From IMG/VR virus record IMGVR_UViG_2541047896_000024: a stretch of 4,163 nucleotides of DNA; one strand, 5' to 3'. This DNA is from a virus. Lineage: Duplodnaviria > Heunggongvirae > Uroviricota > Caudoviricetes. Positions 1 to 4,163 of this stretch are shown piece after piece. How positions within the stretch are numbered: position 1 is the first letter of the stretch; each line of letters begins with the position of its first letter. The position numbers were made by a program, and so were the translations under genes. The notes below the pieces were generated by a model. It searched no databases and was not told the origin of the DNA. It saw nothing but the letters and a program-made list of their open reading frames with translations.

Positions 1-7
1 CATCCAA

Positions 8-40
8 CCGCAGCACGTTCTTGCTTAAGACGTGCTGCGG
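8..40. other. Perfect 10-bp GC-rich inverted repeat with 13-nt spacer (ccgcagcacg / cgtgctgcgg)
   Basis: 8..17 ccgcagcacg is the exact reverse complement of 31..40 cgtgctgcgg. It lies 15 nt downstream (minus strand) of the tfa-remnant stop. No U-tract follows on either strand, so it is not a canonical intrinsic terminator. Confidence 0.35.
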
Positions 41-54
41 CATAATCCCAATGA

Positions 55-183
55 TTACTCCCTGACAGGGTTCGTAGGCCACTCAATATCAGGTGCAGTT
101 GATGTATCAACACGGTTCAGCAACACCCGATACTTTTTCCAGGCTTCCAGCAACGGGGTTTCTTCCTCCGTTGCATATACAGC
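55..183 (-). pseudogene. tfa: 3' remnant (last ~42 codons) of a tail fibre assembly gene; the 5' ~150 codons are missing
   Basis: Minus-strand frame between the in-frame TGA (184..186) and TAA (55..57) translates to [42 protein letters not shown]. This matches the C-terminus of lambda Tfa as I recall it (...[32 protein letters not shown]). There is no start codon or N-terminal Tfa sequence; the upstream frame is closed by a stop. Confidence 0.65.
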
Positions 184-193
184 TCACCTTTTT

Positions 194-487
194 TCACCCA
201 CGATTAACCAACAGCCAGACCAGCAGACACGCCACCACCGGCACAGCAAAATCTATCAGGCTTGCCACATCCCAAACACGCGGATCAAAACCGCCCCACC
301 ACGGCATGTTAATCCACTTGCCATGCCCGAACATTTCAATCCAGCGATATTCTGCCTGGGTGTGTTCACGCGCAATGAAGAACGTACAACCGGCTATCGC
401 CCCGTAAACCCAGTTTCCGGCAAAAAGACCAATCATTACCTGCGCAGCCACAGCACAAAGCGCATGAAGAAAAGGTGTTATATCCAT
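194..487 (-). CDS. Small hydrophobic protein (97 aa), predicted membrane protein with 2-3 transmembrane helices
   Basis: ORF 194..487 (-). AGGAGG Shine-Dalgarno directly follows the stop of the upstream 234-aa gene (minus strand TAA-AGGAGGAGTA-ATG). Hydrophobic stretches at about residues 6-39 (FLHALCAVAAQVMIGLFAGNWVYGAIAGCTFFIA) and 72-94 (LIDFAVPVVACLLVWLLV), separated by a Trp-rich polar loop (KWINMPWWGGFDPRVWD). No cleavable signal peptide or lipobox seen. Confidence 0.6.
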   Translation of the reverse strand: MDITPFLHALCAVAAQVMIGLFAGNWVYGAIAGCTFFIAREHTQAEYRWIEMFGHGKWINMPWWGGFDPRVWDVASLIDFAVPVVACLLVWLLVNRG

Positions 488-497
488 TACTCCTCCT

Positions 498-1202
498 TTA
501 TCCGATATCGCTTTGGGAAGTTGATAACAACTTCAATTCTGACTCAAGTTCATCAACTCTTTCAGTCAGTTTCTGGATATGGTGAATCAGTGGAACAACC
601 AGACGTTCGTACATTACACCTTCGGCAACAAGGCCATTGCTGGAAATGGTTTCCGGTGCATCATCTTCGTTGGCTGGTCGCCAGTGAACAAACTGAGGGG
701 CAATTTCTCCTACTTCCTCGGCAATCAATCCATAGAATCCCCAGTCACGCCTGTCATTTTCGCATTGCGACCTGTACCACACAGGGCGCATCCTGAAAAT
801 GAGATCGGCGTGCTCTGAATCTATCGTCTCTACTGAATGTTTATAGCGGATAGACGATGTTGACCGCAGCACAGACGAAATTGCAGGGTCAGGATTAAGA
901 TAAAGATTTGCCGCCGCTGTAGTTGTGCCCAATCCCCATAAATAAAACGCTTCACGGCCAGTCAGCGGGTAAAAATCTCCGCCATAACGACCACTTTCCA
1001 GATCGTTCACTTCCACTTTGTTTTTCAGCTTATTATCCACTTCTGTTTTTGTGTATCTGGTACTGATATCCTGCTTTGCACTGTCCATATCAGTCTGAAG
1101 CGTTGATACTTTTACGTTAATTGAGGAAATATCTTCCTTTGCCTTACTGACATCTCCCTTTAGCGTTTTGATGTCATCAGGAATTACTGTCGATGTAGCC
1201 AT
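498..1202 (-). CDS. Coiled-coil protein with C-terminal peptidase S74-like domain (intramolecular chaperone / chaperone-of-endosialidase type); tail-fibre-like
   Basis: ORF 498..1202 (-) with GAGGAAG Shine-Dalgarno 5 nt upstream of the ATG at 1200..1202. Residues ~9-69 are charged and heptad-like (DIKTLKGDVSKAKEDISSINVKVSTLQTDMDSAKQD...). Residues 116-225 fit the S74 self-cleaving chaperone domain pattern: S116-SIRY-K121 (Ser-Lys dyad spacing as in the SDRRLK motif), ...LIFRMRPVWYR..., ...WGFYGLIAEEVGEIAPQFV..., ...LVVPLIHHIQKLTERVDELESEL. Domain call is by pattern recognition, not a profile search. Confidence 0.7.
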   Translation of the reverse strand: MATSTVIPDDIKTLKGDVSKAKEDISSINVKVSTLQTDMDSAKQDISTRYTKTEVDNKLKNKVEVNDLESGRYGGDFYPLTGREAFYLWGLGTTTAAANLYLNPDPAISSVLRSTSSIRYKHSVETIDSEHADLIFRMRPVWYRSQCENDRRDWGFYGLIAEEVGEIAPQFVHWRPANEDDAPETISSNGLVAEGVMYERLVVPLIHHIQKLTERVDELESELKLLSTSQSDIG

Positions 1203-1211
1203 TTTTCTTCC

Positions 1212-1493
1212 TCACATCCAGCTACGGAGTTGATGCTCAACAGCAACCACGTATTCATCGAATAATGACGATATTTGCGAATCATTAATGATGCGCACAT
1301 TTACAAAATATCCGTCCTCCTTAACACATACCGGCTCGCCATCTTCAGTAAGTTCTCCGGTTTCTTTGTACACATTACCTATCACGTCAATAAGAATATC
1401 ATCCTGCATCGACTCGTCATCATAATAGCCAATGCTCTCCATAAAGGCCGAAAAGTCGGCCCTGTCTGCAAATTTGAGTGTTAAATCTTTCAT
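1212..1493 (-). CDS. Hypothetical small acidic protein (93 aa), translationally coupled to stf
   Basis: ORF 1212..1493 (-). Its ATG (complement of 1491..1493) overlaps the stf stop (complement of 1493..1495) as TAATG. GGGGGAG Shine-Dalgarno about 8 nt upstream inside the stf 3' end. Asp/Glu-rich, no hydrophobic segment. No family recognised from memory. Confidence 0.6.
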   Translation of the reverse strand: MKDLTLKFADRADFSAFMESIGYYDDESMQDDILIDVIGNVYKETGELTEDGEPVCVKEDGYFVNVRIINDSQISSLFDEYVVAVEHQLRSWM

Positions 1494-3895
1494 TAGATTG
1501 ACTCCCCCATCTGAGCATCAGTCAATGCCTTGTGCCAAATACGCAGATTTCGAACGTGTCCAAATAGGTGACGGTTGCCGGATGATGATTGACCACCAAT
1601 ATTAATGAAGCCTCCTGTATATTTGTGTTTTTTATAAGGAGAAACTACCTTAGCACCAATATTACCGTTAACCACAACACACAATTCTCGACTTTCTGTG
1701 AATCTAAAGCCGATAATGCTTTTTCTCTCTGGTCGTTCTATAACGCTTTTATATTCTATTTTAGTGCCTTTACCATTTGTAATGATTGCGCGTGCTCCCA
1801 AAGATGTATACCCCAAATACATATAACTTTCATCTGCAATTTCAGTTGTATCTCCCGTAGTGGAAATATTAAGAATACGTGCGCTACCTTCTTTGTTTGG
1901 CGATTCATCCCAATTGGTATTAACTTCTGCTAATGAACTAATAGCGGGATTGCACCAATTTAGAGAAATGGGGACCGTTACAATATCGCTGGCGCGTGTT
2001 ACAGGGGATGCGCCTGTTATAATAAACGATGAAGCGCATGCCCCACCTTCAACTTGAGGGGTCGCAATATAAATATAATCATCCGCGCCAGTGCCCACTC
2101 CTTTTGCCGGGGCATACTGAACCATTCCACCTATCATATTTTCTGTATCAAGTGCCTTAATTGTCGCCTCAAAAAAGATCCATTTGCTTGCTTCATCTTT
2201 AACAGCCCTTGCAGTAATGCGATTAGCGGCACCACCCGTCTTATCAATAGATAAATCTGTCGTATTTAAGTAAGCGTCACCTAAGAATGTGTAGGTAGAA
2301 CCATCATAGTTTTCAAATCGTAATCGGCATCTTAAATTTGGAGTGCCACTTTGCACCCTGCATGATATGGTTACATACTTTTCTCCGCCTGTTACATCAA
2401 AACCTTTACTGCCGGAAACGGTTACTATGTTAATCGCTGAAATTTGCCCTACCATTTCTGGTTTTAATGTAAATTTTGCGTACTGGAATCCGAAATCATC
2501 TACACCTGATGCACTTAAGATCATATTTGACGACTTGTTCCATTTAGTCGGATTTGTTGAATTGATTAGCAGGTTAGTTCTTTGCCCCTCAATAAGCAGG
2601 CCATCACGTTCAAATCGTGGCTCGTCAATGGCAGCCTCTGTCAGCACACCAGATTTATTAATGTAAGTTGCTTTCGATGCGCGTTTAAACTTTACAATCT
2701 TGTCGCCAGGCATTGTTATTTCATCGTCGCCAATAACAATTTTTTTATATGATGGCGAAAAGCCCGTAATCATATCCAGTGAATCGTTAAACGGTATCCA
2801 CACATCAGGCAGTGGCTGTAAGACATATTTATACGGCTCTGCTGCCTGACTTGCATACTCTCTGGCTGCGTCTTCACTTGCTTTAGCTGCTGTCTGGCTT
2901 GCTGCCGATGCTTGCGCCGAGTTCGCCGCCGCAGTCTCGCTCGCCTTTGCGTTGGTTTCACTGGTTTTTGCTGCTTTTTGACTGTTAGCTGATGCAGTGG
3001 CAGAAGCAGCCGCCGCGCTTGCAGAACTGGCTGCGGCACTCTCGCTTTGGGCCGCTGCATCCTGACTGCTTTTCGCCGCAGTTTCACTGGCTTTGGCATT
3101 CGTTTCGCTGGTCTTCGCTGCCGTCTGGCTGGACTTTGCGTTAGTTTCACTCGTCTTCGCAGCTTTCTGGCTGTTAGCCGCAGCAGTTGCTGATCCAGCT
3201 GCTGAAGTCGCAGAACCGGCTGCCGCGCTCTCGCTTTGGGCTGCTGCAACCTGGCTGTTTTTTGCCGCAGTTTCACTGGCTTTGGCATTCGTTTCGCTGG
3301 TTTTCGCTGCCGTCTGGCTGGACTTTGCGTTGGTTTCGCTCGTCTTTGCGGCTGTCTCGCTATTTTTCGCGTTGGTTTCTGATTTTTTGGCTGCTGTCGC
3401 GGAGTTTGCCGATGCAGTCTTTGAGGTCGCTGCCGCCTGTGCACTATTAGCTGCATTCGTTTCTGAGGTTTTCGCCGCGTTCTTCGATGATGCCGCTGCA
3501 GTTTCGGATTTCTTTGCCGCCGCTGCGCTCTGAGAGGCGGCTTCAGCGTTGCGTGCCGCTTCTTCCACCATTTCCTCAAAACGACGCAATGCCTCCGGCA
3601 TGACATCATCTTCCGTCATGGCACCGAGAAAATCATTCAGCGTCCCCGGCTTAGAATCTTCATACACGGTGATGGTCCCGGCATGTGAAGGCGAAAAACC
3701 TTCAACCAGCAGGATAACGCTGTACTGGCCATACTCAACATCCATACTGTAACGCCCGGCTTCATCCGGATTTTCTGAGGCCAGCGTGTTCACTACCACC
3801 GTGGTGCTGTTACGTTTTGCTTTCAGCTGGATTGAGCAGTTCTGTACCGGTTTTCCTGTGCCGTCTTTCAGTACACCTGAAATCTTTACTGCCAT
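1493..3895 (-). CDS. stf: Side tail fibre protein, lambda Stf family (800 aa) with a divergent C-terminal receptor-binding region
   Basis: ORF 1493..3895 (-). The N-terminal ~115 aa (MAVKISGVLKDGTGKPVQNC...YSMDVEYGQYSVIL...HAGTITVYEDS...) match the lambda Stf N-terminus as I recall it. G-rich Shine-Dalgarno (GGGGGG) 3 nt upstream of the ATG at 3893..3895. Residues ~118-350 are Ala/Ser/Thr-rich heptad-like repeats (KTSETNA/KSSQTAA...). C-terminal 450 aa are non-repetitive and end in ...GFINIGGQSSSGNRHLFGHVRNLRIWHKALTDAQM, which resembles the C-terminal strand of ConA-like/LamG lectin domains. Confidence 0.92.
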   Translation of the reverse strand: MAVKISGVLKDGTGKPVQNCSIQLKAKRNSTTVVVNTLASENPDEAGRYSMDVEYGQYSVILLVEGFSPSHAGTITVYEDSKPGTLNDFLGAMTEDDVMPEALRRFEEMVEEAARNAEAASQSAAAAKKSETAAASSKNAAKTSETNAANSAQAAATSKTASANSATAAKKSETNAKNSETAAKTSETNAKSSQTAAKTSETNAKASETAAKNSQVAAAQSESAAAGSATSAAGSATAAANSQKAAKTSETNAKSSQTAAKTSETNAKASETAAKSSQDAAAQSESAAASSASAAAASATASANSQKAAKTSETNAKASETAAANSAQASAASQTAAKASEDAAREYASQAAEPYKYVLQPLPDVWIPFNDSLDMITGFSPSYKKIVIGDDEITMPGDKIVKFKRASKATYINKSGVLTEAAIDEPRFERDGLLIEGQRTNLLINSTNPTKWNKSSNMILSASGVDDFGFQYAKFTLKPEMVGQISAINIVTVSGSKGFDVTGGEKYVTISCRVQSGTPNLRCRLRFENYDGSTYTFLGDAYLNTTDLSIDKTGGAANRITARAVKDEASKWIFFEATIKALDTENMIGGMVQYAPAKGVGTGADDYIYIATPQVEGGACASSFIITGASPVTRASDIVTVPISLNWCNPAISSLAEVNTNWDESPNKEGSARILNISTTGDTTEIADESYMYLGYTSLGARAIITNGKGTKIEYKSVIERPERKSIIGFRFTESRELCVVVNGNIGAKVVSPYKKHKYTGGFINIGGQSSSGNRHLFGHVRNLRIWHKALTDAQMGESI
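2846..3545. repeat. Degenerate tandem repeats inside stf: about three 189-nt (63-aa) units with 21-nt (7-aa) sub-periodicity
   Basis: Direct comparison at a 189-nt offset: 3078..3140 and 3267..3329 are nearly identical (gcagtttcactggctttggcattcgtttcgctgg...ccgtctggctggactttgcg); 2944..2999 versus 3133..3188 is about 80% identical. A 21-nt periodicity is visible at 3327..3400 (gcgttggtttcgctcgtcttt / gcggctgtctcgctatttttc / gcgttggtttctgattttttg). Boundaries are approximate. Confidence 0.75.
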
Positions 3896-3906
3896 ATTCC
3901 CCCCAC

Positions 3907-3932
3907 AAAAAAGCCCACCTGAACCGGCGGGC
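3907..3932 (-). terminator. Rho-independent terminator downstream of lom
   Basis: On the minus-strand transcript: stem GCCCGCC (3926..3932) / GGUGGGC (3913..3919) with one G-U wobble, 6-nt loop (3920..3925), followed by a U6 run (complement of the A-run 3907..3912). The hairpin pairs better on the minus strand than on the plus strand (A-C mismatch there). Confidence 0.6.
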
Positions 3933-3959
3933 TGTCATAACACTGTGTTACCTGGCTAA

Positions 3960-4163
3960 TCAGAATTTATAACCGACACCCACGATGAAACCGTCAGTGC
4001 GCCAGTCACCACTGCCAGAACCTTCATAAGCAATATCAATGGCCACGGATTCGGTCGGGTTAAACTGCACGCCAGCCCCCCACGCCAGAGACGTGTTGCT
4101 GTGGCGACCGTCATCACTTCCGGTCAGCACATCGTGCGTTTTCCCCTTGTTGTCAGTTACGCG
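3960..4163 (-). CDS. lom: 3' end of lom (Ail/Lom/PagC/OmpX-family outer-membrane beta-barrel protein); 5' part lies beyond the window edge
   Basis: Minus-strand translation of 3963..4163 gives ...SLAWGAGVQFNPTESVAIDIAYEGSGSGDWRTDGFIVGVGYKF*, ending in the aromatic-terminal GVGYKF beta-strand typical of this family; stop TGA is the complement of 3960..3962. Position immediately upstream of stf matches the lambda order J-lom-stf-tfa. Confidence 0.85.
   Translation of the reverse strand, partial: RVTDNKGKTHDVLTGSDDGRHSNTSLAWGAGVQFNPTESVAIDIAYEGSGSGDWRTDGFIVGVGYKF

What the first reader, a model, noticed from the sequence alone, without database searches (positions are those of the whole stretch)
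194..2845. Tail-fibre distal module replaced: foreign receptor-binding half plus a three-gene cassette in place of tfa
The lambda-like stf N-terminus and shaft repeats are followed by a C-terminal half that looks unlike lambda Stf. The next three genes are linked by overlapping or abutting stops, starts and ribosome-binding sites (TAATG; TGA-GAGGAAG-ATG; TAA-AGGAGG-ATG), and they end exactly where a 3' stump of tfa begins. This pattern suggests one recombination event swapped the receptor-binding region and its accessory genes as a unit. None of the three genes is a recognisable Tfa-type chaperone, so they are the best candidate here for an undescribed fibre-accessory or fibre-linked exclusion system.
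Basis: partly seen in the sequence, partly recalled or inferred. Interest (0 to 1): 0.8.

Follow-up and report, generated by a model that had tools for sequence, protein, structure and literature searches.

The report
Phage-21-type two-part side tail fibre locus
This is a common, already catalogued kind of tail-fibre locus in E. coli lambda-like prophages: a sugar-binding fibre, its small partner protein, a short add-on fibre and an unrelated small membrane protein, not a newly swapped-in cassette or a new defence system.

Summary
On the minus strand lie lom, an 800-aa stf, three tightly packed genes (A93, B234, C97) and a 39-codon relic of tfa. The Stf N-terminus and shaft are lambda-like; the distal half is not.

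The layout is the phage 21 type of side-tail-fibre locus. Each accessory gene occurs in about 1,000-1,900 of 5,426 complete E. coli genomes and in cultured phages.

The three genes are not one unit:
- **A93** always follows a fibre gene with this distal module, in temperate and virulent phages alike.
- **B234** fills an optional slot for a short second fibre. It has a conserved N-terminal motif, a coiled coil and a self-cleaving S74 chaperone domain. Phage 21 lacks it; 2G7b has a 345-aa alternative.
- **C97** is a three-helix membrane protein with no known family. It follows unrelated fibre genes in temperate phages and also stands alone in chromosomes.

The Stf distal half resembles the polysaccharide-binding head-spike fibre of the Rhodobacter gene transfer agent. 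The window is itself a recombinant: only stf codons ~381-800 were exchanged, while A-B-C stayed with the backbone.

The functions of A93 and C97 remain unknown. C97 is the only part where an exclusion role stays open.

The parts
3960..4163 (-). 3' end of lom (Ail/Lom outer-membrane protein), cut by the window edge
   Evidence: Pfam PF06316 E=1.8e-34. It is 87% identical at the DNA level to the lambda lom end.
3912..3933 (-). Terminator-like hairpin between lom and stf
   Evidence: A consensus scan finds 8 pairs followed by a T run. Phage 21 has an annotated terminator just upstream of stf, between J and stf.
3503..3895 (-). Stf N-terminal collar/attachment domain (aa 1-131), lambda-like
   Evidence: PF08400 E=1.2e-68. 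PDB 9E7M/9MGH, the Ur-lambda side tail fibre collar, E=5e-50.
2846..3502 (-). Stf shaft (aa ~132-350): Ala/Ser/Thr-rich repeats, including a 189-nt tandem repeat at 2927-3361
   Evidence: TRF finds period 189, 2.3 copies, 83% matches. BLASTP to lambda orf-401 extends to aa 272.
1496..2845 (-). Stf distal half (aa 351-800). It has a conserved hinge (351-433), a domain like the RcGTA head-spike fibre (~380-640), and a C-terminal region ending in IGGQ..G..HLFGH.RN.RIWHK.LTD that I read as a LamG/galectin-like jelly roll.
   Evidence: NCBIfam NF048003 GTA_spike_fiber scores 61.2 bits against a cut-off of 36, aa 434-635. A profile of the distal half hits PDB 6TB9 Rcc01080 at E=9.3e-32. It is 44-48% identical to phage 21 Stf, the Drexlerviridae lateral tail fibre and IrisVonRoten gp22. 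The authors of PMC11990801 predict a galectin-like C-terminal domain for gp22. The jelly-roll reading here rests on that homology and the end motif, not on a model of this protein.
1495..2753 (-). Recombinant tract: stf codons ~381-800 carry the allele of haplotype L082 inside a backbone identical to haplotype L013
   Evidence: All 307 differences from L013 lie between window 1495 and 3086. They are sparse in the shaft repeats (2914-3086) and dense from 2753 down to 1495. Window 1-1494 has none. L082 shows a single mismatch across this tract.
1212..1493 (-). A93: 93-aa acidic protein whose start overlaps the stf stop (TAATG). It is the constant companion of this type of fibre distal module.
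   Evidence: phrog_1361 E=2.7e-46. tblastn hits 183 phage records, lying directly after a tail-fibre gene wherever the record is annotated. dN/dS is 0.09-0.37.
858..1202 (-). B234 mature part (aa 1-115): N-terminal motif MATSTVIPDDIKTLK, a coiled coil and a small tip
   Evidence: The N-terminal motif is shared with 2G7b gp24, IrisVonRoten gp24, Drexlerviridae and Queuovirinae proteins. Pfam gives weak coiled-coil family matches over aa 9-70.
498..857 (-). B234 C-terminal intramolecular chaperone (Peptidase_S74) domain, aa 116-234, plus the stop codon. S116 and K121 occupy the Ser-Lys dyad positions.
   Evidence: PF13884 scores 27.3 bits against a cut-off of 22, with model position 1 at residue 116. 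PDB 8HQZ, an L-shaped tail fibre C-terminus, E=4.9e-7. dN/dS is 0.16-0.23.
194..487 (-). C97: 97-aa three-helix membrane protein with an invariant AREHTQAEYRWI...MPWWGGFD motif
   Evidence: phrog_1443 E=2.3e-56. No Pfam, NCBIfam or PADLOC match. The AlphaFold2 model has pLDDT 90.9 with helices 4-23, 26-53 and 74-96.
55..183 (-). 3' relic of tfa (last 39 codons), a pseudogene. Homology to lambda begins at about 175.
   Evidence: Caudo_TAP E=6.6e-17. It is 87% identical to lambda Tfa 156-194. The same C97/relic junction, 23 nt after C97, recurs in IMG/VR and Escherichia ruysiae loci. Phage 21 DNA aligns across it, window 118-499.

Best explanation
The region is the side-tail-fibre end of the late operon of a lambda-like E. 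coli prophage, in the phage 21 arrangement.

**Shown by homology**
- Stf attaches to the tail tip through a lambda-type N-terminal collar and extends through a repeat-rich shaft.
- Stf does not end in the gp37-like tip that needs Tfa. It ends in a module homologous to the polysaccharide-binding head-spike fibre of the Rhodobacter gene transfer agent, followed by a C-terminal region.
- A93 belongs to a family that always lies directly after a fibre gene with this module, in temperate and virulent phages.
- B234 shares an N-terminal motif and a C-terminal S74 domain with interchangeable proteins in the same slot.
- C97 belongs to a separate family. It is found after many kinds of fibre gene in temperate phages and also alone in chromosomes.

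**Inferred**
- The fibre binds a surface glycan (O-antigen, capsule or LPS), and the C-terminal region is a LamG/galectin-like jelly roll.
- A93 is made together with Stf through the TAATG overlap. It is a dedicated assembly factor or adaptor for this module, and it replaces Tfa.
- B234 is a short second fibre. Its first ~15-30 residues dock it on the Stf/A93 end and its coiled coil trimerises. The S74 domain folds the tip, then cuts itself off between T115 and S116, leaving a 115-residue mature protein.
- C97 is not part of the fibre. It is a moron-type membrane protein, probably acting on the lysogen's envelope by modifying a receptor or excluding superinfecting phages.

The tfa relic is a fossil of an old replacement that phage 21 shares. 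Current variation arises from separate exchanges of the Stf distal tract, of the B slot and of flanking DNA.
For: **Fibre identity**
- Phage 21 has stf (48% identical over the full length), a 92-aa protein (54% to A93) and a 97-aa membrane protein (89% to C97), with no B gene.
- The same trio is syntenic elsewhere. Drexlerviridae have a lateral tail fibre (46%), a 92-aa protein (47-54%) and a 225-231-aa 'putative lateral tail fiber chaperone' (55-59%). T5-like IrisVonRoten has gp22 (44%), gp23 (39%) and gp24, which shares the N-terminal motif and the chaperone domain. Its authors model gp24 as a distal fibre attached to a proximal fibre.

**B slot**
- 2G7b gp24 (345 aa) shares B234's first 15 residues exactly (72% over the first 32) and has a canonical S74 end, but a different middle.
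- Among 80 IMG/VR loci with A at least 92% identical, the two slot types occur with Stf distal halves 43-100% identical to the window's.
- The motif is found in the corresponding proteins of lambdoid phages, Queuovirinae and Drexlerviridae.

**Selection and abundance**
- dN/dS is below 1 for A, B and C.
- These genes occur in 983-1,886 of 5,426 complete E. coli genomes.

**C97 independence**
- Its contexts are shown.
- No full-length copy appears in the virulent phages that carry the fibre plus A.
- G+C is 0.49-0.54 over C97 against 0.36-0.46 over A, B and the Stf distal half.

**Recombination**
-.
Against: - No experiment or complex model ties A93 or B234 physically to Stf. The docking role of the B motif is inferred from conservation and from another group's AlphaFold models of a homologue.
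- B234's mature part is very small (115 aa) for a receptor-binding fibre. BASEL annotators called its homologue a chaperone.
- The A93 structure model is poor (pLDDT 58) and its fold search gave nothing significant.
- C97 lies in the late operon with a good ribosome-binding site. No promoter-like site was found on its strand. Prophage-state expression, which an exclusion role would usually require, is therefore not shown.
- Most C97 relatives in other genera are not next to recognisable fibre genes.
- The RcGTA head fibre is present as a single subunit per spike. How such a module sits on a trimeric shaft is unknown.
Confidence: 0.72

Rival explanations
1. A single recombination brought in a foreign receptor-binding half together with a three-gene cassette. 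The cassette acts as one undescribed fibre-accessory or fibre-linked exclusion system.
For: The genes are tightly packed and read in one direction. The C97/tfa-relic junction is the same in many loci. G+C is low across the Stf distal half, A and B. No PADLOC, Pfam or NCBIfam name exists for A93 or C97.
Against: Phage 21 and many lambda-like phages lack B. The B slot and the Stf distal allele reassort independently. The window's own exchange tract stops exactly at the stf stop codon. A and B occur in virulent phages without C. C occurs with unrelated fibres and without phages.
Confidence: 0.08
2. B234 is a stand-alone, trans-acting chaperone. It helps Stf or another fibre to fold and is not part of the virion, as the BASEL annotation 'putative lateral tail fiber chaperone' implies.
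For: Half of the protein is an S74 chaperone domain. The remaining 115 residues are mostly coiled coil. Drexlerviridae records annotate the homologue as a chaperone.
Against: From established knowledge of endosialidase and T5 pb1, S74 domains act in cis on the polypeptide they end, and are then cleaved off. Phage 21-type loci assemble the same Stf type without B. KarlJaspers, which has B, and phage 21, which lacks it, share the same Stf C-terminal subtype. Proteins in the same slot with the same N-terminal motif carry large receptor-binding-like middles.
Confidence: 0.15
3. B234 is a dead remnant: the 3' end of a former long fibre gene that happens to keep an ATG.
For: Its whole length matches the last ~240 positions of a 1,385-residue PHROG family profile (phrog_3299).
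Against: dN/dS is 0.16-0.23. It has its own ribosome-binding site and a conserved N-terminal motif shared with other slot proteins. Proteins of the same length are conserved at 55-60% identity in compact virulent Drexlerviridae genomes. About 740 E. coli genomes carry at least 80% of the gene.
Confidence: 0.03
4. C97 is a membrane-bound assembly or release factor for this fibre type during lytic growth, not a lysogen-benefit gene.
For: It is co-oriented with the late genes and abuts them, with a strong ribosome-binding site and no promoter-like site of its own. In Comamonas, Pantoea and Chelativorans prophages it again directly follows the same fibre module, with or without an A-like protein.
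Against: It is absent from virulent phages with the same fibre plus A. It is present after unrelated fibres and as a lone chromosomal gene in Aeromonas and Sphingomonas.
Confidence: 0.12

Closest known systems
Phage 21 side-tail-fibre locus (OL657228: side tail fiber, hypothetical protein, putative membrane protein)
   Same: The Stf type is the same over the full length (48% identity). The 92-aa partner is 54% identical and the 97-aa membrane protein 89%. DNA is 94.5% identical across window 118-499, which includes the C97/tfa-relic junction.
   Different: Phage 21 has no gene between A and C. It has no lom upstream of stf, and it carries sitABCD downstream.
Lateral tail fibre loci of BASEL Drexlerviridae (PeterMerian bas05_0031-0029, KarlJaspers bas06_0037-0035)
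   Same: The order and homology are the same: fibre distal half 41-46%, small protein 47-54%, coiled-coil plus S74 protein 55-59%.
   Different: The N-terminal attachment domain differs. There is no C97, no lom and no tfa relic. These are virulent phages.
Two-part lateral fibre of T5-like phage IrisVonRoten (gp22 proximal fibre, gp23, gp24 T-shaped distal fibre; PMC11990801)
   Same: gp22 is 44% identical to Stf aa 130-800 and gp23 is 39% identical to A93. gp24 shares the N-terminal motif and the C-terminal chaperone domain with B234. The authors model gp24 as attached to the proximal fibre and note a galectin-like C-terminal domain on gp22.
   Different: gp24 is 574 aa with two receptor-binding domains, whereas B234 has only ~50 residues between the coiled coil and the cleavage site. 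The attachment of gp24 rests on structure prediction, not experiment.
Lambda (Ur-lambda) Stf-Tfa
   Same: The N-terminal collar domain and shaft repeats match, the position after lom is the same, and a tfa 3' relic plus downstream DNA is retained.
   Different: There is no similarity to the gp37-like distal half (orf-314) and no functional Tfa. From the literature, the lambda tip binds OmpC and needs Tfa.
RcGTA head-spike fibre Rcc01080 (GhsB), PDB 6TB9
   Same: There is sequence-profile homology to Stf aa ~380-640 (E=9.3e-32; NCBIfam NF048003). The RcGTA protein mediates attachment to capsular polysaccharide.
   Different: It sits on the capsid as a single subunit held by an N-terminal Leu-Gly repeat. 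It is not at the end of a trimeric tail fibre, and it lacks the extra C-terminal region.
Branched LtfA/LtfB fibres of T5-like DT57C (PMC4728585)
   Same: A second fibre protein hangs on the first through a short conserved N-terminus and ends in a self-cleaving S74 domain.
   Different: In DT57C both proteins carry S74 domains. I did not fetch or compare the DT57C sequences, and the passages I read mention no A93-like small gene.

Membership tests
Lambda-type side tail fibre (Stf) | N-terminal 'prophage tail fibre N-terminal' collar domain that attaches to the tail tip | tested here: met
   PF08400 E=1.2e-68, aa 1-131. PDB 9E7M/9MGH E=5e-50.
Lambda-type side tail fibre (Stf) | gp37-like distal receptor-binding half (lambda orf-314) | tested here: not met
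   BLASTP of the 800-aa Stf against lambda orf-314 gives no hit at E<=1e-3.
Tfa / Caudo_TAP tail fibre assembly chaperone | Full-length protein (~190 aa) with the PF02413 domain, encoded directly after the fibre gene | tested here: not met
   Only profile positions 95-130 of 131 survive, in a 42-codon frame after C97. A93, B234 and C97 have no Caudo_TAP match.
Fibre proteins with a C-terminal intramolecular chaperone (Peptidase_S74) | S74 domain at the C-terminus above the Pfam gathering score | tested here: met
   B234 aa 116-172 match PF13884 at 27.3 bits against a cut-off of 22. The C-terminus of a T5-like L-shaped fibre, 8HQZ, matches at E=4.9e-7, and MYRF 7DC3 matches weakly.
Fibre proteins with a C-terminal intramolecular chaperone (Peptidase_S74) | Ser-Lys catalytic dyad (S, then K five residues later) at the start of the domain | tested here: met
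   Model position 1 aligns to S116 and K121 lies five residues on (SSIRYK). This is read. That these positions are the dyad comes from my knowledge of endosialidase and T5 pb1.
Fibre proteins with a C-terminal intramolecular chaperone (Peptidase_S74) | Autoproteolytic release of the domain after trimer folding | not testable with these tools
   This needs protein chemistry or virion mass spectrometry.
RcGTA head-spike-fibre-like glycan-binding module | NF048003 domain above its cut-off, with homology to Rcc01080 | tested here: met
   61.2 bits against a cut-off of 36. The profile hits 6TB9 at E=9.3e-32.
RcGTA head-spike-fibre-like glycan-binding module | Binds a surface polysaccharide | not testable with these tools
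   This is known only for RcGTA.
Two-part lateral fibre (proximal fibre, small protein, distal S74 fibre) as in IrisVonRoten and Drexlerviridae | All three genes homologous and in the same order | tested here: met
Two-part lateral fibre (proximal fibre, small protein, distal S74 fibre) as in IrisVonRoten and Drexlerviridae | Physical attachment of the distal protein to the proximal fibre | not testable with these tools
   No multimer prediction was available here. In the literature it rests on AlphaFold-Multimer models.
Known anti-phage defence or superinfection-exclusion proteins | Match to a PADLOC-DB model | tested here: not met
   None of Stf, A93, B234 or C97 has a family hit at E<=0.1.

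The most novel reading that the evidence does not exclude
C97 represents an uncharacterised, widespread family of ~97-residue three-helix membrane proteins. It forms 435 clusters at 50% identity, has no Pfam family and carries a near-invariant AREHTQAEYRWI...MPWWGGFD motif. Temperate phages of all three tail types place it directly after their fibre genes. Its proposed role is to alter the lysogen's envelope or block superinfection by phages that use the same receptors. On this reading it would be a new kind of fibre-adjacent lysogenic-conversion or exclusion gene. A93 would separately be a new class of fibre assembly factor that replaces Tfa for glycan-binding fibre ends.
Probability: 0.3. 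Interest if true: 0.6.

Novelty: new member of a known kind. Interest (0 to 1): 0.33.

Why it matters
For annotation, this locus should be read as a complete, probably functional two-part side tail fibre, not as a broken stf-tfa pair with unknown passengers.

The exchange points found here are the conserved hinge at about aa 358-440 and the stf stop/A93 start. They are natural splice sites for anyone engineering lambda-type particles with new host ranges. If this reading is right, such constructs should carry A93, not Tfa, with this type of fibre end.

Two very common E. coli prophage proteins remain without a known function. A93 occurs in at least ~1,000 of 5,426 complete genomes, and C97 in ~1,900 with up to 7 copies per genome. 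Both are cheap to test.

Tried and rejected
- **A93 structure.** The allowed alignment was shallow (at least 83% identity), and the model is poor (pLDDT 58). Foldseek against the PDB gave nothing at E<=0.001. The PII-like beta-alpha-beta topology should not be trusted.
- **afdb50 fold library.** It was not available.
- **PADLOC scan.** All four proteins were negative.
- **Rfam scan of the window.** No match.
- **Tai tail-assembly-inhibition systems.** I considered them for the cassette. They sit mostly upstream of the packaging module and target the central tail fibre J or the podovirus tail needle. I did not compare sequences.
- **Literature on chimeric lambda Stf and on phage 21.** I found no description of A93 or C97.
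- **A B-specific docking feature in Stf.** Comparing loci with and without B gave nothing. KarlJaspers (with B) and phage 21 (without B) share the same C-terminal subtype.
- **C97 as a holin.** I considered this because of its size and three helices. I set it aside because of its position, its lone chromosomal copies and its strongly conserved loop. I ran no test.

Full report
**What is in the window**

All coding is on the minus strand. In order of transcription the genes are:
- the 3' end of lom (3960-4163)
- a terminator-like hairpin (3933-3912)
- an 800-aa stf (1493-3895)
- a 93-aa gene, here A93 (1212-1493)
- a 234-aa gene, B234 (498-1202)
- a 97-aa gene, C97 (194-487)
- a 42-codon frame (55-183) that is the 3' end of tfa

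Stf and A93 share TAATG. A93 and B234 are joined by TGAGGAAGAAAAATG. B234 and C97 are joined by TAA-AGGAGGAGTA-ATG.

The relic is significant. It matches Caudo_TAP at E=6.6e-17 and is 87% identical to lambda Tfa 156-194. Window 6-175 aligns to lambda 22437-22608, the end of tfa plus the DNA after it.

**Where lambda likeness ends**

DNA similarity to lambda covers window 3546-4087 only, the lom end and the first ~350 nt of stf. Protein similarity to lambda orf-401 runs to Stf aa 272, and there is none to orf-314.

The N-terminal 131 residues are the PF08400 domain. They match the Ur-lambda side-fibre collar solved in 9E7M/9MGH. The shaft holds a 189-nt tandem repeat.

At about aa 350 (window ~2845) the protein changes character. 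G+C drops from 0.54-0.59 to 0.36-0.46.

**What the distal half is**

It is not exotic. Phage 21 Stf is homologous over its full length (48%). So are the lateral tail fibres of Drexlerviridae (41-46% over aa ~260-800) and gp22 of the T5-like phage IrisVonRoten (44%).

NCBIfam recognises a 'GTA head spike fiber' domain at aa 434-635. A profile of nine distal halves hits Rcc01080, the head-spike fibre of the Rhodobacter capsulatus gene transfer agent, at E=9.3e-32. That protein mediates attachment to the capsular polysaccharide.

The last ~160 residues end in a conserved IGGQ..G..HLFGH.RN.RIWHK.LTD motif. The BASEL authors predict a galectin-like domain at the C-terminus of gp22. I therefore infer that this is a glycan-binding fibre end. 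That is an inference, not a result.

**A93**

It matches phrog_1361, of unknown function. It has no Pfam or NCBIfam match.

tblastn finds it in 183 phage records: lambdoid phages, Drexlerviridae, Dhillonvirus, Queuovirinae, T5-like and rV5-like phages. In the rows listed, wherever the record is annotated, it overlaps or abuts a tail-fibre gene. In the phages examined, that upstream gene has the same distal module.

In Comamonas and Pantoea prophages an A-like domain forms the N-terminal half of a 171-188-aa protein. That protein again follows a stand-alone version of the module.

dN/dS is 0.09-0.37. The structure model was poor (pLDDT 58) and its fold search empty.

The constant position, the start that overlaps the stf stop, and the presence in virulent phages all point one way. 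A93 is most likely a dedicated assembly factor or adaptor for this fibre end, filling the place of Tfa.

**B234**

Residues 116-234 are a Peptidase_S74 intramolecular chaperone domain. Pfam scores it above its gathering score, and it resembles the C-terminus of a T5-like L-shaped fibre, 8HQZ. S116 and K121 fall at the positions of the Ser-Lys dyad. Residues 1-115 hold a short N-terminal motif, a coiled coil and a ~50-residue tip.

Three findings show that it occupies a slot for interchangeable second fibres:
1. [quoted passage not shown] Its first 15 residues are identical to B234's (MATSTVIPDDIKTLK), its middle is different, and its end is a canonical S74 domain.
2. IrisVonRoten gp24, a 574-aa T-shaped fibre, has the same N-terminal motif and chaperone domain. 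Its authors model it as attached to the proximal fibre.
3. The motif recurs in the corresponding proteins of Queuovirinae and Drexlerviridae.

Phage 21 and many lambda-like phages have no gene in the slot. B234 therefore cannot be needed to fold Stf.

dN/dS is 0.16-0.23, and proteins of the same length are kept in virulent Drexlerviridae. B234 is therefore not a dead remnant.

The best reading is a short add-on fibre that cleaves off its own chaperone domain. The rival reading, a trans-acting chaperone, follows the BASEL annotation. I rate it at about 0.15.

**C97**

It matches phrog_1443. It has no Pfam, NCBIfam or PADLOC match.

The family is large. There are 556 relatives in the word-indexed search and 435 clusters at 50% identity in the exhaustive search, all small stand-alone proteins. 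Conservation is striking: AREHTQAEYRWI and MPWWGGFD are essentially invariant from Escherichia to Comamonas and Aeromonas.

Its contexts set it apart from A and B:
- It follows the same fibre module in Escherichia, Comamonas, Pantoea and Chelativorans.
- It follows unrelated fibres or spikes in Leclercia and Desulfovibrio, and in the Uetakevirus phiv142-3.
- In Halomonas phage phiHAP-1 it follows the tail-fibre assembly gene, just before the sheath gene.
- It lies a short way after J in Comamonas, separated by a 72-aa gene in one locus.
- It stands alone among housekeeping genes in Aeromonas and Sphingomonas.
- No full-length copy appears in the virulent phages that share the fibre and A.
- Its G+C (0.49-0.54) differs from that of A, B and the Stf distal half.

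C97 therefore behaves like a moron that temperate phages park after their fibre genes. An envelope-modifying or exclusion role is plausible but untested. I found no promoter-like site on its strand.

**History of the locus**

The C97/tfa-relic junction, 23 nt after C97, recurs in IMG/VR and Escherichia ruysiae loci. Phage 21 DNA aligns across it at 94.5% (window 118-499). The displacement of tfa is therefore old and shared, not specific to this window.

Among 80 IMG/VR loci whose A is at least 92% identical, the Stf distal half ranges from 43 to 100% identity. The slot holds either the B234 or the 2G7b type in any combination.

The window itself is a recombinant:
- It is identical to locus L013 over 1-1494 (A, B, C and the relic). 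It matches L013 almost perfectly over 2754-4163.
- Over 1495-2753 it is only ~58-70% identical to L013.
- Over that tract it matches L082, with one mismatch.
- L082 differs by up to ~18% per 100-nt bin elsewhere.

The crossovers lie in the conserved hinge and at the stf stop/A93 start. The receptor-binding tract therefore moved on its own.

**How common it is**

Whole-window matches at ~97% identity occur in 76 complete E. coli genomes. The nearest is a prophage beside yecD/aspS in strain AVS0969, where stf is a pseudogene.

The B234-type gene is in 983 of 5,426 genomes, including NCTC86 and 042. C97 is in 1,886, with up to 7 copies. A93 of this sequence type is in 988.

Cultured phages with the full A-B-C set include IdasGreatGrand, PhiR49_1 and PhiR55_1.

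**Verdict**

The true exchange boundary is 2754-2785 against the predicted 2840-2850. The downstream boundary is about 175-193, as predicted.

The interpretation as one foreign cassette and an undescribed system is not supported. This is a new member of a known kind: the phage 21-type two-part, probably glycan-binding side tail fibre, plus an unrelated membrane moron.

Two things remain of interest. A93 and C97 are very common and conserved, and no function has been tested for either. The exact exchange points may also be useful for fibre engineering.

Noticed in passing
window 1495-2753 versus 1-1494 and 2754-4163: The window is a mosaic of two haplotypes found in IMG/VR. It is identical to L013 outside this tract and identical to L082 (one mismatch) inside it. 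The crossovers fall in the conserved Stf hinge and at the stf stop/A93 start.
   Followed up: yes
window 2927-3361: The Stf shaft contains a 189-nt (63-codon) tandem repeat, 2.3 copies at 83% identity, with shorter 42- and 21-nt periodicities nested in it. The long antisense ORFs here (for example 2770-3609, and 3093-3533 on the + strand) are probably by-products of the Ala/Ser-rich repeat, like lambda's annotated orf206b.
   Followed up: partly
window 3912-3933, minus strand: A terminator-like hairpin (8 pairs, then a T run) lies between lom and stf. Phage 21 has an annotated terminator just upstream of stf, between J and stf.
   Followed up: no
window 8-40: A perfect 10-bp inverted repeat (ccgcagcacg / cgtgctgcgg) with a 13-nt loop lies just downstream of the tfa relic. 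It is inside the stretch shared with lambda 22437-22608. It may be a terminator between convergent genes.
   Followed up: no
L105 4484-4999, L113 4432-4998, L117, L104 (Pantoea and Comamonas prophages): The A93-like domain is the N-terminal half of a 171-188-aa protein with an extra C-terminal part (phrog_6034). It sits between a stand-alone ~400-aa version of the Stf distal module and a C97-like gene.
   Followed up: partly
L011 6001-6309 (Aeromonas rivipollensis); L155 (Sphingomonas arvum): C97-family genes stand alone among housekeeping genes: between a pirin and a RIO1 kinase gene, and after NAD-dependent DNA ligase. No phage genes are nearby.
   Followed up: partly
L165 3501-3806 (Halomonas phage phiHAP-1): A C97 relative (about 40% identity) overlaps the stop of the tail fibre assembly gene and precedes the sheath gene. 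From memory, this is the position where phage P2 carries its non-essential fun(Z) gene.
   Followed up: no
L001 6269-8272 (E. coli AVS0969, nearest complete genome): The stf gene is annotated as a pseudogene missing its C-terminus, whereas the window's stf is an intact 800-codon frame. Many chromosomal copies of this locus may be decaying.
   Followed up: no
L007 6203-7350, L009 5365-6388 (PhiR49_1, 2G7b): In some phages a reverse-strand gene is inserted between C97 and the tfa relic. It is annotated as a class I SAM-dependent methyltransferase in 2G7b and as a YbcY-like hypothetical protein in PhiR49_1. The spot after C97 is therefore a further insertion point.
   Followed up: no
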